NCBI RefSeq assembly: GCF_018977255.1
Contig: NW_024704766.1
Coordinates: 2,294,001-2,358,000, forward strand
Direction of reading: 5' to 3'
Length of the DNA stretch: 64,000 nt
Source of the DNA: Callorhinchus milii
Taxonomy: Eukaryota
Positions 3,001 through 11,200 of the stretch are shown one piece after another. Position 1 is the first letter of the stretch. Every line of letters begins with the position of its first letter. Made by a program: the position numbers.

Positions 3001-6000
3001 AAACAGTGACTGCGTATCATGCATCAAGTTACATCGTTCAATGTTTATTTTGTTCATCTGCGCTAATAAGTGTTACCATAAACAATTCAATCATTGACAA
3101 TCATGCATCCAAATACTTTAGAATAGATATTGAATATAGATATTTCCCATAATCAACAGTAATCGGTCTCGTTATAAACCGTATCCTTCACAAATTATCC
3201 CTCTCTCACCTTCCGACCTCTCTTTGTTGGAACCGACCTTGAGTTTCTCCATTTGTGGAGTCCTGTAGCTCAGTGGTTAGAACACTCGCTTTGCAAGTGA
3301 GAGACCCGAGTTCAATTCCAGGCAGAGGGCGAAACCTTGGGCAAGTTTCCTTACTCCACACAGAGCCTAATAATAATCCCTCCAAAACCCAAAACAATAA
3401 TAAATTGGTCATTTTCAATCCACGACTATTTGTGGGACATTGCTGTGCGCAATTGGCTGCCGCGTTCGCCCACAAATATACAGTCAATTCACTTTACAGT
3501 ATATTCTGTGAAGCGCTTTGGGACGTCCTCCCGACGTGAAAAACGCTATATCAAATGCGAGGATTATTATTAGTATTATTTAATCAATACGAGTGCAGTT
3601 GCTCCACACATTCGCACATTCTACCTTCCAAAATACCCACCCAAGTGTCTTCTAATTAGAGCGTCAAGCTATGACTTATCTCCCTACAAAAGACAGGTTT
3701 TAATCCTGTGAGTGACGACACAGGCCATCGATCATGTGTGAGTGATCCGGGCTGGTTCCTGCTTTCATCGCTTCCCTTCTTCTGAAGTTGGGATCGGAAC
3801 GATATCCGTCAATTTTCGGTCTTTGATTGAGTCGTGAACCTGACCTAAAGCAGCGGAGCCAACGGAGAGAACTTTTGACAAGCTTCTGCTTCCAGTTTTC
3901 AGTCGGAAGTCTTACGTTTTAAGTTTTAAATTTTACGTTTTAAGTGTGAACGTAAATGCAAAATAATAATAATAACAATAATCTGGTCACTCACTCCACG
4001 ACTTGTTTGTGGGACACGGCAATCGGCCGCCGTGTTTCACCCACAAAATATACAGTCAATTCAGTTCACAGTCTATTCTGTGGAGCGCTTTGAGACGTCT
4101 CGAAGATATAATGAGGCGTCAATCAAATGCGAGGATTATTATTATCATTATTAATATTATTTTCTGATCTCCCACCATAGCTGAAATGTTAAGGTAACGG
4201 TGCGATGAATCTGATCTGAGAGGCTGCGGAGATTTTTTTTTTTTTTGCTAATGGCGTTTTCCTTTGAGGAATGTCTTCAATCCGCTTCTTTCCTTCGGAT
4301 GTTCCGGCTCTCTCTTGACGAAGGCATTGTTTCCGCGCTTCAGTCTCAGCAGGTCTCGCAGGTGTATCACATAGCATTGCGTGAGCTTCACCAACAGAAG
4401 AAACTGCTGCTTCGTATCAAAAAACTGGAAACAATTAAAACAGTTTTAAACGTAAAGCAAACCGTACGCTCACGAGGAATGCGCGTTCGCGATATTAATT
4501 GATTGATTCATTATCTTCTAAATTGCCGCACGGCTTCAGAACCGGGAGCTGGGCTCTGAACGTGAGGTAAAGCGGGGTGTCTTTGGGGCTGAACTCTTTC
4601 CGAGGTGACGTTCCTGGCAATTGGAAAACCCCCAACGTCGCTTCCCGAGCCAGGCGGGTCTGCAGGTCTCGAAGGAACGAGAAACACTTATCTGACGGAC
4701 ACTTCGAGAAAGCCGCAAAGACACTCGAGAGGCCCCAAATTCCTGAGAACGGTTTCGCGACAAGACTGGATCGAAGAATTTTCCGATAAGACGCACAATC
4801 ACAAATGTTAAGCTATAATGGTCTTAACACTAACCCTCGGGAGGATTTCAGGCCTCACCCTCTTGTCCAGTCAGGGTGCTATTCGGAGGTTGGTGTTGAG
4901 GGAAATTAAGAGGATGATTCTCCATCTCACCCGCCCGCACCTGATGTGGGACTTGACTATCCTCATCGTGAGGAGCGTCCAAAGGATTCACCTCATAGCA
5001 CAGATTTCAAAATAAACGCTAATGAGCCATAAAACGTAGAACCTGGATACCTCTCGCTGGAACGAGTCCAAGATGCCGGCTTGCTGTGGGATCTCACCAG
5101 GAGTACCTCCATCCGGTTTAATCTTCAGATGAAAGGTCACAGCTTGGGCCTGGATTTCCTACAATAATATTAATAAATAATAACGATAAATAAATGCTAA
5201 TAATGATAATAACAATACTACTACTACTAATAATAATAAATCACAAAACCCTTCAGTTGATAAAGCATCTGTATTGTCAAACATCTCAAAACACTTTACA
5301 GATAATTACTGTTAGCACAGGGATGTTTGCAGACTAACACAACCAACCAATTTGCAGCCATGACTGATTTACTTGGCCTTTTTTGGAACGAATAATAAAA
5401 GCATCAAATAACGAGCAAATAGTGAATGCATATGAAGGTAAAAATCACTGACAAGACTTTGGGGTGTCCAACCTGGACACAATACTCTCTAAGCCCAGTC
5501 TGGCTCCCCAATCCACCAAATCGGTTCACACTGATAACTCCACTTGAGCACCAAGAAAAGCAACGGAAACAACTATGACGTTAATTTGTTAGTGGGCGGC
5601 TCATGGGCCGTATGGCCTCCTTCCGCGCTGTAAGATTCTTTGACTCTTCACACGAGGCACAGTCCGCAAGGACTTCAAGAGCAAAGAACGACAGGTGACC
5701 TTATTTATCATTTACCTTCGAGATTCGAGTGCATTCGTTCAGAGTCTGCAAGCAGTCGTTAAACCGGGGAAGTTTCTCTTCAATTTCTCGTGCAATTCTC
5801 TAAATGAAACAAAAGTGGTGAGAAAGATTTCTCTCCTGATTGGGCCTTAAAGTATTCAGGGCCCAACTTGTGATAGTCATTGCGCTCACAGCCAAACCTG
5901 TGAAGTGTTTCGAAGCGTTTCGTTGATAGGGTAAAGTGTGTACGAAACCTGTCCTGTTCGCCTCGCGCTGCACTCAAACATTCACAGCGGTGTTTATGTG

Positions 6001-8249: not shown

Positions 8250-11200
8250 AAATCTTGGATCGATTTTCTCTATACACTTCAGTGAGAAACTAATAAACTA
8301 AAAGACTCTGCAAATATTTCTCCAGCAACAAATGTTTTCTTTCGATTTTATTTTTTTTCCCTCTTGCTTTGTAGAAAATAAGTCAGAATGAACAGCCAAC
8401 GACAAAAGGTGAGGTTTACGCACACTGGGAGTGGGAAGGCTTAGGAGTTACGTACAATGGATGAGGCGTATAACCACCTTCGGTGCGAAACTGAGCGCAG
8501 GAATGTGCACTTCAGCCAACGAACGCTTCACACAAATAGTCGCCTCCTCGCATTCTCATCAACTAACTCACACACAGGGAGGAACCTGTCAGCTGCACCT
8601 GTTAAAAGCCTAATTGCAAAATGCAGGCCAGGCTTTTGTAAAGGTACCTTTTCTACATTTCTTCCCAAAATACACCATTGAGGCAAACCCCACCCTCACC
8701 GCATCACTTTCTGACGTGCACGAGCCGCGCCCGCAGACGGTCAAACAGCCGCAAACCGGGGCAATTGATCTAATTTCCTCCCCGAGAGTGACGCCTTCAA
8801 AACACGGGTGAAATTGTGATCGGGGACGTGGTGATCAGCCCCGTTCCGAAATAATAATAATAATAATAATAATAAAATAATAATAATCCTTGCATTCGAT
8901 ATAGCGCCTCATCACATCCTCAATGCGCGTAAAGTTTTTTTATGTACAGGTTCGGTACTTACTCTTCTTCCGCCTTCACGAGGCAGTTGTCACCGTAGCT
9001 CCTTCCTAATCCTAAACTGCGCTTCTGCGTGAAAAAACACACGGGGGTCTTACTAAAACACAAGCAATTTCTCCTCGACTCAACCCGCCGCCGCCGCCGA
9101 CAACTTGCATTTACACCGCGCCCTTCACGCGGGGTAGCGTCCCAGAGCGCCCGTGAGCGGCGGAGCGCGCGGCCGAAGGCGGGGAAGGAAGGGACAAGGC
9201 AGAGGGATAGAGGAAGAGTGTTCCAGAGTTTCGGGGTGAAAGTGGCTTGAAAGTGCGGCCACAGATGGTGGAACGGACGGGCACGAGGCTGACCCTGAAG
9301 CCGACCTTAAGCTGCACGACGGAACCACAGGTGACGGTACCTGTGGTCTCAGCCTTTCAACACTATTGGTCTTACGATTTAAGACGGCGTCAGATTTTTA
9401 AAACAAATTCTTAAACCCCAGTTTTAATTCGGGAGCCAGTGTCACGTGGTGCGTTTCGCCCACAGGATACACAATATATCCCGTGAAGTGCTTTAACGAT
9501 CCTTGTATTTGATGCAGCATCTCAACGACCTGATAAGGCGCTAAATCAAAATGCCAGGATTATCATTAAAACGAGTGTGAAAAAAGACGGCCCCCGCGTT
9601 CTTGCAGAATTTAAGAATATTCCAAAATTCTCACAGTAACTGGAACAACATAAATGTAACTTTGAGATGGCAAAAATTACGACATTTAGACGACCCAATG
9701 TATTTCATAAGTTGTTAGAGTATTTTGCATTGCCCCAGCTCGTCTAATCGTTGCTTATAGCTCCAGTAATAATAATAATAATAATAATACTGTCAGTCTG
9801 CTTTACATTACAAAGTAATATTCTTTCAGATAAGTCATAAAACATTGGATGCTGAGCAGGAGAAAGTGGGGGGAAAAGAGGGACTGAATAGATGCAGTTG
9901 AAGAAGTAGGTTTTAAGACAGGACTTTAAACAATTCTCAGAATTTAACTCGCGTTACACGTCATTCAGAGAGCGATGTGAAGCTGCGAGTCGCGTCCGAC
10001 CGAGCTACAGCAGAAAAATAGCTTTAAAAACGCAACGCTTCCAACTTACTCTGGCTGAAAGACGCACGTTAATGTTCGATGGCAACCGGCTGACTTCTTA
10101 ACGGTTAACAAATAAAGTGACTTTACCTTCTGCAGCGCCCCTGCCTTGTCGAGCCAGTGGAAGAAAGGGAAGCTCTCGAGAACATCGAAGTAGGTTAGGA
10201 GGCTGATGACTGACAACAGACTGACAGTGAAGGCAGGCATACAGAAATCAGCTAAGCCGACTAAGACATTTTGTTGGGCGGCAATAGGAACCAACTGCTC
10301 CGCGGTGAGTAGATTGGAAGCATTCATCGTCACCTGAAACTACTTGCACCACAGACTGATGGGTTAACACTAAGAAGCCAATCAGTCAAACCTCAACTCT
10401 ATCTCCTTTGTGGTTTATCTTCAAACGGTCATCGTAATTTTTGCTTGTACCCACATTCTTTTTTATCTTTCTTTCTTGGTCAAAGTCTGCATCTCACTCT
10501 ATCCATCGTTAGCTCTCACTGATTTCCGCAGACGAACTCATTCTCTCTTCCTCCGCCTCTCCCGGCCTCGATCATTCCGTCTCGGTGTCTTCCCTCTCCC
10601 CCTCTTGAGCCGCTCTGTCCTTTTTTTCTCCAAACTGCATTGATTTTTCTGGCGCAGCGACGTTTAAGTTCCTGTCCTGTCGGTTTCCTGTTGAGATCGT
10701 GCCCACATTCCGACCTCGTGAATTCAGAGATCATCTCTCTGGCATGAAGTGGCTGAGCCGGTCGGGCAGGTTTTCTTTTTTTTCCGAAGCGCGGAACACG
10801 AGCCTTCACAGGATTAGCTCCAGTCCATCTCTTCCCTCCAGAATACCCGCCCTGCTCAGCGCAAAGATTTAAGTTATTTTAAAACGAGTCATGTTCTGAC
10901 CTCAACCCACTCTCACCTGACAAGCTGCTCCGGTCATTAATTACCCTCTGGGAAATTTCCCTCTGCAGCTCTTAAGTAAATCTTGTTCCGAAGAAGCTTT
11001 GTTCTGGGTTTACTTTTTCAATCCCATTTAGAGGTTCACACACCTCTGTCAGGTCCCCCCGCAAGAGGACTTCTCTCAAGACCCAAAAGCCCCAGTTTGT
11101 TGTTAGCTCATTCCCCTTAACACTGGGGATCAAACCTCGTGGCCCTCGTCTGCGCCGTCTGTTTTGCCCGGGAAGCCCCCGTATAATAATAATAATAATA

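What the first reader, a model, noticed from the sequence alone, without database searches (positions are those of the whole stretch)
4248..10333. Hidden 8-exon 'mini-plakin' gene: isolated plakin spectrin repeats fused to a membrane anchor
Seen in sequence: eight exons splice GT-AG with matching phases into a stop-free 397-aa ORF, although several exons never appear in the ORF track. Known background (recalled): in plectin, dystonin and MACF1 the end of the plakin domain (SR8-SR9) is encoded by consecutive exons of similar size (about 28 aa and 35 aa) with the patterns 'YxxxxxPLxxW', 'EIE.....eC' and 'xxxQxVTY'. This gene reproduces both those patterns and the exon boundaries. Inference: it is a highly diverged, intron-containing partial duplicate of a plakin gene that lacks the actin-binding domain, SH3, rod and plakin repeats and carries a different first coding exon. 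Canonical plakins are thousands of residues long, and I know no stand-alone ~400-aa version. An intact frame at such divergence argues for selection rather than a decayed fragment.
Basis: partly seen in the sequence, partly recalled or inferred. Interest (0 to 1): 0.85.

Follow-up and report, generated by a model that had tools for sequence, protein, structure and literature searches.

The report
Membrane-anchored mini-plakin gene, elephant shark
This is a real eight-exon elephant-shark gene for a small protein that joins a membrane anchor to the last two spectrin repeats of a plakin, and it belongs to an unstudied family also found in other sharks, frogs and salamanders.

Summary
Eight minus-strand exons (10327..4248) have 7 of 7 GT donors and 7 of 7 AG acceptors, matching phases and no internal stop. 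They give 397 codons.

The gene is not hidden. Exon 5 alone retrieves the 397-aa NCBI record 'uncharacterized protein LOC103180288 [Callorhinchus milii]' (P0001). All eight exon translations sit in it in order.

The plakin reading is supported:
- P0001 and a shark orthologue each hit only plectin SR7-SR9 (5j1i) in the PDB, at E 2.1e-7 and 3.9e-9.
- A 17-member family profile hits it at E 9.4e-20.
- Four true plakins match 60-85 residues after their SR7 domain.
- The AlphaFold2 model shows two spectrin repeats, and 5j1i is the best Foldseek match.

At least 21 small relatives exist, and 16 of them have an N-terminal hydrophobic helix. The named ones are sharks, a frog and salamanders, all labelled 'uncharacterized'.

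Still untested: shared introns with PLEC/DST/MACF1, transcripts, dN/dS, membrane topology and function. Full-length work used the database record.

The parts
10127..10327 (-). Exon 1: ATG at 10327..10325 and 67 codons (phase 0 end). Encodes the N-terminal tail and the hydrophobic anchor helix.
   Evidence: Equals P0001 residues 1-67. 28 of 67 residues are identical to the Chiloscyllium orthologue P0028.
10178..10234 (-). Codons 32-50, the most hydrophobic 19-mer (AFTVSLLSVISLLTYFDVL). Candidate single membrane-spanning helix.
   Evidence: Mean Kyte-Doolittle value 1.84. An N-terminal 19-mer of 1.73-2.55 occurs in 16 of 21 small relatives. It lies within AlphaFold2 helix 12-51. No dedicated membrane-helix predictor was available.
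10328..10333 (-). Six leader bases between a possible acceptor AG (10335..10334) and the ATG. This may be the end of a 5'-UTR intron.
   Evidence: Sequence only. An in-frame TAG at 10342..10340 closes the frame upstream. Inference; no transcript data.
8963..9024 (-). Exon 2, 62 nt: poorly conserved linker after the anchor.
   Evidence: Equals P0001 residues 68-87 plus 2 nt of codon 88. 1-3 of 10-12 aligned residues are identical to relatives. The Pristiophorus isoform P0004 skips it together with E3.
7821..7962 (-). Exon 3, 142 nt: first helix (A) of the first spectrin repeat (SR8-like) and the start of its second helix (B).
   Evidence: AlphaFold2 helices 98-119 and 127-153; helix 127-153 continues into exon 4. 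E2+E3 together are 204 nt, so skipping both stays in frame, as in P0004.
7021..7277 (-). Exon 4, 257 nt: rest of SR8-like helix B, a disordered insert of about 40 residues (154-195), and the start of the long helix that is SR8 helix C.
   Evidence: pLDDT below 50 in 159-166, 181-183 and 185-188. The plectin alignment starts at residue 192.
6388..6550 (-). Exon 5, 163 nt: end of SR8 helix C, the continuous junction, and SR9 helix A. It carries the invariant W245, E254 and H257 and the near-invariant C261.
   Evidence: 28 of 54 residues are identical to P0028 and 12-14 of 52-54 to canonical plakin segments. Aligns to plectin YRESADPLGAWL.
5716..5799 (-). Exon 6, 84 nt: SR9 helix B (REIEEKLPRFNDC...).
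   Evidence: P0005 ends, and P0006 diverges, exactly at its 3' border.
5051..5158 (-). Exon 7, 108 nt: end of SR9 helix B and the B-C loop. Skipped as a cassette in relatives.
   Evidence: The Stegostoma isoform P0029 and Pleurodeles isoform P0011 (compared with P0031) lack exactly this segment.
4248..4424 (-). Exon 8, 177 nt: SR9 helix C with the family-specific C356 and H360, a basic tail, and the stop TAG at 4250..4248.
   Evidence: Aligns to plectin EYVDLRTHYSELTTLTSQYIKFISETLR. 20 of 35 helix residues are identical to P0028.

Best explanation
An intact, conserved protein-coding gene of the elephant shark (NCBI LOC103180288, unnamed) lies 3.8 kb downstream of CHEK1 on the same strand. Its 397-aa product has an N-terminal hydrophobic helix followed by two spectrin repeats. 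These repeats descend from the last two repeats (SR8-SR9) of the plakin domain of plectin-type cytolinkers. All other plakin parts are absent.

Most likely mechanism, with a rough probability for each inferred step:
- The N-terminal helix is an uncleaved anchor in an internal or plasma membrane (about 0.7).
- The short N-terminus faces the lumen or the outside, and the rigid two-repeat rod of about 10 nm faces the cytosol (about 0.6).
- The rod works as a small membrane-bound adaptor or spacer that binds a cytoskeletal or scaffold partner through the SR9 surface (about 0.4; partner unknown).

Two further features fit this picture. A family-specific His/Cys set (H257, C261, C356, H360) sits on SR9. 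The exon for the SR9 B-C loop is skipped in isoform models of relatives, which may tune the module.

Shown here: the gene structure, the homology, the fold class, the family and the conserved hydrophobic N-terminus. Inferred: membrane insertion, orientation, partner binding and expression.
For: Gene model: 8 of 8 exons are in phase with GT-AG borders and match P0001.

Plakin SR8-SR9 homology:
- P0001 hits only 5j1i_A (plectin SR7-9) in the PDB, E 2.1e-7, residues 192-366 against chain 197-370.
- The Chiloscyllium orthologue P0028 alone gives the same single hit, E 3.9e-9.
- The family profile A1 gives E 9.4e-20; the next hit is at E 0.5.
- Of 27 hits in 1.84 billion representatives, 9 are large plakin-type proteins, E 9e-7 to 8.1e-4.
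- Of the 6 large hits short enough to scan, 5 carry Plectin repeats and 4 carry SR_plectin_7 plus SH3_10. In those 4 the match starts 60-85 residues after SR_plectin_7.

Fold: the AlphaFold2 model has mean pLDDT 75, rising to 89-98 in the ten-residue blocks over 201-320 and 331-370 (63 in the 321-330 loop). Its helices are 98-119, 127-153, 196-257, 264-316 and 332-374. Foldseek ranks 5j1i first (E 8.8e-5, TM 0.45/0.51), then 5j1g, nesprin-2 and spectrin.

Family and selection:
- 21 small relatives were found.
- The window protein is sister to the 7 other rows of a shark clade (97/88).
- The small proteins split from the canonical plakins with 100/100 support.
- H257 is present in 21 of 21 small rows, C261 in 20 of 21, C356 in 20 of 20 and H360 in 18 of 21. 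All four are absent from 9 of 9 canonical rows.
- Isoform gaps in three other species fall exactly on this gene's exon borders.

Anchor: an N-terminal hydrophobic 19-mer is present in 16 of 21 relatives. More K/R residues lie on its C-terminal flank in 11 of those 16, equal numbers in 3, and fewer in 2.

Not a gene tail: the last CHEK1 coding exon ends near 14110, and the frame is closed 5 codons upstream of the ATG.
Against: - Searched exon by exon, no exon carries the plakin signal alone. 0 of 8 exons reach any Pfam cut-off, and 0 of the 5 exons tried (E4-E8) hit plectin in the PDB.
- The local Pfam copy finds no spectrin or plakin family in P0001 or in any of the 17 members of A1.
- The axolotl relative P0009 alone does not hit plectin.
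- The Atlas scores (0.82-0.85) are below the level that counts as more than a lead.
- Foldseek TM scores are only about 0.45-0.5.
- No transcript, localisation or topology data were available.
- The positive-inside signal is weak.
- Function is wholly inferred.
Confidence: 0.8

Rival explanations
1. The hydrophobic N-terminus is not a cytosol-facing anchor. It could be a cleaved signal peptide or a type II anchor that puts the repeats in the lumen or outside the cell, where the conserved cysteines would form disulfides. It could also be a helix that packs on the protein.
For: Conserved cysteines (C261 in 20 of 21 rows, C356 in 20 of 20, C291 in many) would suit an oxidising compartment. The K/R bias around the helix is weak: a C-flank excess in only 11 of 16. 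pLDDT of the first 30 residues is 42-59.
Against: The helix starts about 30 residues in and is 19 or more residues long, without a clear cleavage context. The K/R bias, where present, points to a cytosolic C-terminus. It is my recollection, not a test here, that spectrin repeats and all plakin domains are cytosolic.
Confidence: 0.15
2. It is a generic spectrin-repeat protein, for example nesprin-like, and is not specifically derived from a plakin. The plectin match would reflect shared helical composition.
For: The nearest Atlas clusters are CCDC141, KASH/nesprin and SESTD1, not plakins. Foldseek also lists nesprin-2 and spectrin.
Against: The PDB holds many spectrin-repeat chains, yet 5j1i is the only sequence hit for P0001, for P0028 and for the profile. 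The large hits scanned are plakins matched at one and the same place after SR7. Motifs align column for column. W245, R221 and L225 are shared with canonical rows.
Confidence: 0.07
3. The exons are the 3' tail of a much longer conventional plakin gene, or a mis-split gene model.
For: An AG acceptor sits 6 nt upstream of the ATG, in frame, so an upstream exon is possible.
Against: Only 3.8 kb separate the ATG from the last CHEK1 coding exon on the same strand. Ten of the 12 relatives aligned start with their own Met at or within about 25 residues of this start, ahead of the same hydrophobic helix. P0002 lacks that part, and P0003 starts about 18 residues further upstream. No CH, SH3_10 or SR_plectin_7 match was found in P0001.
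Confidence: 0.03
4. It is a decaying partial duplicate (pseudogene) that happens to keep an open frame.
For: It is highly diverged from plakins (about 20-25% identity). There is no expression evidence here.
Against: The frame is intact over 8 exons with all splice sites in place. Orthologues 35-46% identical exist in other sharks, and relatives about 25% identical exist in amphibians, with family-specific invariant residues. The tree fits species relationships.
Confidence: 0.03

Closest known systems
Plectin plakin domain, spectrin repeats SR8-SR9 (PDB 5J1I), and the same region of desmoplakin-, dystonin- and MACF1-type plakins
   Same: Homologous by sequence (E 2.1e-7 single sequence, 9.4e-20 profile) and the best structural match. 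Two three-helix repeats are joined by one continuous helix. W245, R221, L225 and the EF.DL(R/K) start of SR9 helix C are shared.
   Different: Only 397 aa. No CH, SR3-SR7, SH3, rod, plakin repeats or GAR. An N-terminal hydrophobic anchor replaces them. There is a disordered insert of about 40 residues in SR8. The family-specific H257, C261, C356 and H360 are absent from 9 of 9 canonical rows. A long branch separates the two groups.
Nesprins (KASH-domain spectrin-repeat proteins), including the short nesprin-3 and nesprin-4. Sizes and plectin binding by nesprin-3 are recalled, not tested.
   Same: A membrane-tethered run of spectrin repeats facing the cytosol. Nesprin clusters are among the nearest Atlas neighbours (scores 0.83-0.84, leads only). 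Nesprin-2 is a Foldseek match.
   Different: The anchor is at the N-terminus, not a C-terminal KASH peptide. No KASH match was found. The repeats are plakin-type by sequence.
The unnamed small-protein family marked PF27015.1 in the search database
   Same: P0001 carries the label, as do P0028, P0004 and P0031. They share length, anchor and repeats.
   Different: None known. The accession is not in the local Pfam copy, so I saw neither its name nor its description.
Envoplakin-like protein EVPLL, a short human plakin-related protein (recalled, not tested)
   Same: It shows that short plakin-derived proteins exist.
   Different: As I recall, it resembles the N-terminal part of envoplakin and has no membrane anchor. 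It did not appear in any search here.

Membership tests
Canonical plakin family (plectin, dystonin, MACF1, desmoplakin, envoplakin, periplakin) | Plakin domain with SR3-SR7 and an SH3 inserted in SR5 | tested here: not met
   No Spectrin_2/3/4, SH3_10 or SR_plectin_7 match in P0001 at E up to 1, nor in any of the 17 family members at E up to 0.01. The same models hit the canonical proteins strongly.
Canonical plakin family | SR8-SR9 module at the end of the plakin domain | tested here: met
   (5j1i is the only PDB hit). (the match starts 60-85 residues after SR_plectin_7 in 4 of 4 proteins that have it)..
Canonical plakin family | Filament-binding ends: CH actin-binding domain, plakin (Plectin) repeats or GAR, and a long rod | tested here: not met
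   No such Pfam match. The protein ends 23 residues after SR9 helix C.
Canonical plakin family | Shared intron positions and phases with PLEC/DST/MACF1/DSP around SR8-SR9 | not testable with these tools
   No eukaryotic genomic DNA other than the window was available. Three look-ups for the two gene-structure papers found nothing held. The only hint is that plectin R1347, five residues into the stretch aligned to E8 by my reading of the EYVDLR motif, is reported in exon 31 (PMC11203604, passages).
Spectrin-repeat superfamily | Tandem three-helix bundles joined by a continuous helix, with a conserved Trp in helix A | tested here: met
   AlphaFold2 helices 98-119, 127-153, 196-257, 264-316 and 332-374. 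Foldseek hits to plectin, nesprin-2, spectrin and alpha-actinin repeats. W245 is present in 30 of 30 rows.
PF27015 small-protein family | Match to the Pfam model | not testable with these tools
   The label is precomputed in the database for P0001. The model is absent from the local Pfam copy. Homology to other labelled members is shown directly.
Nesprin / KASH proteins | C-terminal KASH transmembrane peptide | tested here: not met
   No KASH match. The C-terminus is basic and not hydrophobic. The only hydrophobic segment is N-terminal.
Single-pass membrane proteins with an uncleaved N-terminal anchor | One hydrophobic helix of about 19 or more residues near the N-terminus, conserved, with a flanking charge bias | tested here: inconclusive
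   Mean Kyte-Doolittle value 1.84 over residues 32-50. Present in 16 of 21 relatives. K/R bias towards the C-terminal flank in 11 of 16. No dedicated predictor and no experiment.

The most novel reading that the evidence does not exclude
This is an ancient jawed-vertebrate family of membrane receptors for the plakin cytoskeleton. The anchored SR8-SR9 copy, stiffened by a family-specific His2/Cys2 metal site (H257, C261, C356, H360), would pair side by side with the SR7-SR9/rod junction of plectin-type cytolinkers. Plectin SR7-9 pairs with itself in the 5J1I crystal, according to PMC11203604. The pairing would tether intermediate-filament networks to a particular membrane, or cap plakin dimerisation. 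Skipping of exon 7 would act as the switch.
Probability: 0.1. Interest if true: 0.8.

Novelty: new variant of a known kind. Interest (0 to 1): 0.5.

Why it matters
Plakins are known as giant cytolinkers. The SR7-SR9 end of their plakin domain has no known partner (PMC11203604, passages).

A conserved family keeps only that module and puts it on a membrane. That suggests the module has a function of its own, which could be studied in a 400-residue protein instead of a 500-kDa one.

The family also adds a new architecture to the spectrin-repeat proteins: an N-terminal anchor, the mirror image of the nesprins. Among the named records it is seen only in cartilaginous fishes and amphibians, so it may be a case of gene loss in other lineages.

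None of my searches found it in print. The terms were LOC103180288, PF27015, 'mini-plakin', SMCO2 with plakin, and three term sets combining plakin-domain, spectrin-repeat, evolution and SR8/SR9 terms.

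Tried and rejected
- **Exon-by-exon Pfam scan.** 0 of 8 exons reached a cut-off. The only row was Erv26 on E1, E 0.026, below its cut-off.
- **Exon-by-exon PDB search of E4-E8.** 0 of 5 hit plectin. E5 gave two chance rows, E 0.82 and 1.1.
- **Pfam on P0001.** Only SAM_1 at E 0.17. Across the 17 members of A1, five unrelated families were each hit by a single member.
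- **ESM Atlas for P0001 and P0009.** Spectrin-repeat clusters at 0.82-0.85, below the 0.9 lead threshold. No large named cluster of the family appeared.
- **P0008** (5841 aa, 14 stretches, E 6.5e-16). Rejected as a repeat-inflated chance hit, because BLASTP gives E 0.11 or worse for each stretch. It was left out of the tree.
- **P0009 alone against the PDB.** No plectin hit.
- **Homodimer prediction of residues 95-380**. The verdict was 'no answer' (runs 0.64, 0.00, 0.00), so it is not evidence either way.
Accessions and taxa of the unnamed relatives therefore stayed unknown.
- **Gene-structure papers for BPAG1 and plectin.** Three look-ups for the two papers found nothing held, so plakin exon sizes could not be read.
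- **The idea that the family equals the mammalian 'single-pass membrane and coiled-coil' (SMCO) genes.** This is a recollection of the name style only. No paper joins SMCO2 and plakin and no sequence test was possible, so it is left open.
- **PolyA signals and CpG content around the gene** gave nothing decisive.

Full report
**Source and setting.** Exon 5 of the model (window 6388-6549, minus strand) is 100% identical to the 397-aa NCBI protein 'uncharacterized protein LOC103180288 [Callorhinchus milii]' (P0001, E 3.4e-28). The window is therefore elephant-shark DNA and not human. An exon at 19047-19421 on the same strand matches Chk1 kinase structures at E 2.4e-38. CHEK1-like C-terminal exons run down to about 14110. 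Long frames at 22431-30632 read like STT3A by my recollection only. The gene under study starts 3.8 kb below the last CHEK1 coding exon. The window also holds three runs of N outside the gene, which I left alone.

**The observation.** I read the minus strand and checked each exon separately. The eight exons are:
- E1 10327..10127
- E2 9024..8963
- E3 7962..7821
- E4 7277..7021
- E5 6550..6388
- E6 5799..5716
- E7 5158..5051
- E8 4424..4248

They have 7 of 7 GT donors, 7 of 7 AG acceptors, matching phases and no internal stop. They total 1194 nt, which is 397 codons plus TAG. Each of the 8 translations lies at the expected place in P0001. An in-frame TAG closes the frame five codons above the ATG. 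The gene is 'hidden' only from an ORF track.

**The joined step.** No search or fold was run on a joined model of my own. Exon by exon the result is thin. No Pfam family reached its cut-off on any of the 8 exons, and none of the 5 exons tried (E4-E8) hit plectin in the PDB. The full-length evidence below comes from the database record P0001, which the exon-5 search returned, and from natural relatives in other species.

**Plakin homology.**
- P0001 against all PDB chains gives one hit, plectin SR7-SR9 (5j1i_A), at E 2.1e-7. Residues 192-366 align with chain 197-370.
YRMGYRPLRSW aligns with YRESADPLGAW, REIEEKLPRFNDC with EEIERHGEKVEEC, and IQAQAVTF with YELQLVTY.
- The Chiloscyllium relative P0028, 35% identical to P0001, gives the same single hit on its own at E 3.9e-9. 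The axolotl relative P0009 does not.
- A profile of 17 family members hits 5j1i_A at E 9.4e-20, and the next hit is at E 0.5.
- A HMMER scan of 1.84 billion representatives gave 27 hits at E up to 0.001: P0001 itself, 16 small proteins (169-396 aa), 9 large plakin-type proteins and P0008.
- P0008 is a repeat-inflated chance hit.
- I scanned the 6 large ones short enough to scan. Five carry Plectin repeats and 4 carry SR_plectin_7 with SH3_10. In those 4 the matched stretch starts 60-85 residues after SR_plectin_7, which is where SR8-SR9 lie. The three proteins over 7000 aa exceeded the tool's size limit and were not scanned.

**Fold.** AlphaFold2 on alignment A1 gave mean pLDDT 75 and pTM 0.60. 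The ten-residue block means are 89-98 over residues 201-320 and 331-370, and 63 in the 321-330 loop. The predicted parts are:
- helix 12-51, which holds the hydrophobic segment
- helices 98-119 and 127-153
- a disordered insert at 154-195
- one long helix 196-257
- helices 264-316 and 332-374

This is the pattern of two spectrin repeats sharing a continuous helix. Foldseek against the PDB ranks 5j1i first (E 8.8e-5, TM 0.45/0.51). Next come 5j1g (plectin SR7-8), nesprin-2G and spectrin repeats.

**What is missing and what is added.** P0001 has no match to CH, SH3_10, SR_plectin_7, Plectin repeat or KASH models. The same holds for all 17 members of A1. Instead there is an N-terminal hydrophobic 19-mer at residues 32-50, with mean Kyte-Doolittle value 1.84. 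Such a segment (1.73-2.55) is present in 16 of 21 small relatives, and the other 5 lack that part of the protein. K/R residues are more numerous on its C-terminal flank in 11 of the 16, equal in 3 and fewer in 2. By the positive-inside rule (textbook knowledge) this weakly favours a lumenal or outside N-terminus and cytosolic repeats.

**The family.**
- Named relatives are all 'uncharacterized protein'. They come from Chiloscyllium plagiosum, Stegostoma tigrinum, Pristiophorus japonicus, the frog Mantella aurantiaca, Ambystoma mexicanum and Pleurodeles waltl.
- The database marks P0001, P0028, P0004 and P0031 with PF27015.1. That accession is absent from the local Pfam copy and from the papers searched.
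- I built a tree of 30 rows: 21 small proteins and 9 canonical segments, with P0008 left out. It splits small from canonical with 100/100 support on a branch of length 1.9.
- It resolves a shark clade of 8 rows (97/88), with the window protein sister to the other 7 (100/98), and a clade of 13 rows holding the amphibians (99/95).
- Family-specific residues shared by both clades argue for one origin. H257 occurs in 21 of 21 rows, C261 in 20 of 21, C356 in 20 of 20 with a residue there, and H360 in 18 of 21. The three H360 exceptions have divergent or truncated C-termini. All four residues are absent from 9 of 9 canonical rows.
- Conservation is highest in E1, E5 and the helix part of E8. It is lowest in E2 and the E4 insert.

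**Gene structure in relatives.** Isoform differences fall exactly on this gene's exon borders.
- Pristiophorus isoform X2 (P0004) lacks E2+E3, which is 204 nt and in frame.
- Stegostoma isoform X2 (P0029) and Pleurodeles isoform X5 (P0011, compared with P0031) lack exactly E7.
- P0005 ends at the E6|E7 border, and P0006 diverges there.

I infer that the borders E1|E2 and E3|E4 are kept among sharks, and that E6|E7 and E7|E8 are also kept in a salamander. I also infer that E7 is a cassette exon.

**Shared introns with canonical plakins.** This could not be tested. No other eukaryotic genomic DNA is reachable, and three look-ups for the two gene-structure papers found nothing held. Passages of PMC11203604 state that plectin exons 1-30, 31 and 32 encode the N-terminal domain, the rod and the C-terminal domain. 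They also state that R1347 in SR9 was sequenced in exon 31. From its spacing to Y1343 I identify R1347 as the R of EYVDLR, which aligns five residues into E8.

**Mechanism.**
- Shown here: a conserved gene for an N-terminal hydrophobic helix plus a plakin-type SR8-SR9 pair.
- Inferred: the helix anchors the protein in a membrane with the rigid two-repeat rod in the cytosol, where it acts as a small adaptor or spacer.
- The same passages of PMC11203604 say that SR7-SR9 is a rigid unit with no known partner, and that it pairs with itself in the 5J1I crystal and in an AlphaFold model. That suggests self-pairing or pairing with plakins as a testable idea.
- My one complex job on two copies of residues 95-380 gave no verdict and counts neither way.
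- The His/Cys set could be a metal or redox site. I could not inspect model coordinates, so this is untested.

**Novelty.** I found no paper on this gene or family. LOC103180288, PF27015 and 'mini-plakin' each gave 0 papers. SMCO2 with plakin gave 0. The listings for three term sets combining plakin-domain, spectrin-repeat, evolution and SR8/SR9 terms showed nothing relevant by title or abstract. The gene is annotated and apparently catalogued in a recent Pfam release, but it is unnamed and unstudied. I class it as a new variant of a known kind: a plakin-derived spectrin-repeat module in a new, membrane-anchored, stand-alone architecture.

Noticed in passing
window-wide, e.g. 4085-4099, 7465-7479, 7675-7689, 8062-8076; tRNA-like 3263-3325 and 49845-49907: A dispersed repeat is present. 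A 15-base core gives 29 matches with up to 2 mismatches, against 0.11 expected by chance. Three copies lie in introns 3 and 4 of the gene and one lies just downstream of it. It is usually next to an (AAT)n run. Two weak tRNA matches may be heads of tRNA-derived SINEs.
   Followed up: partly
window 6630-6870 (intron 4 of the gene): Two (GA)n/(CT)n runs in opposite orientation are flanked by roughly 30-base inverted copies (…cagcaggtcaggcagc… / …gctgcctgacctgctg…). It looks like a hairpin-forming insertion.
   Followed up: no
window 20000-21400: GC rises to 0.58 with strong negative GC skew. Long Pro/Thr/His-rich frames are open in all six frames. This is a repetitive, GC-rich block between the CHEK1 5' end and the STT3A-like exons.
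   Followed up: no
window 48384-48920, 58710-59054, 63091-63471 (+ strand): Exon-like frames rich in Cys with recurring G.YC motifs suggest a plus-strand gene for a cysteine-rich repeat protein. No Pfam match at E up to 0.001 in any of the 3 frames.
   Followed up: partly
P0001 residues 257, 261, 356, 360 (window codons in E5 and E8): The pattern H-x3-C on SR9 helix A and C-x3-H on helix C is conserved across the small family and absent from 9 of 9 canonical plakin rows. It could be a metal or redox site. The geometry was not checked.
   Followed up: partly
relatives P0004, P0029, P0011/P0031, P0005, P0006: Annotated isoforms in a sawshark, a zebra shark and a newt skip E2+E3 or E7, or read on past E6. 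This suggests regulated splicing of the SR9 B-C loop.
   Followed up: partly
window 10325-10327 and residues 2-4: The start codon has A at -3. Residues N2-A-S form a glycosylation sequon in the short N-terminal tail, and it is not conserved in relatives.
   Followed up: no
window, outside the gene: Three runs of N (masked sequence or gaps) are present.
   Followed up: no
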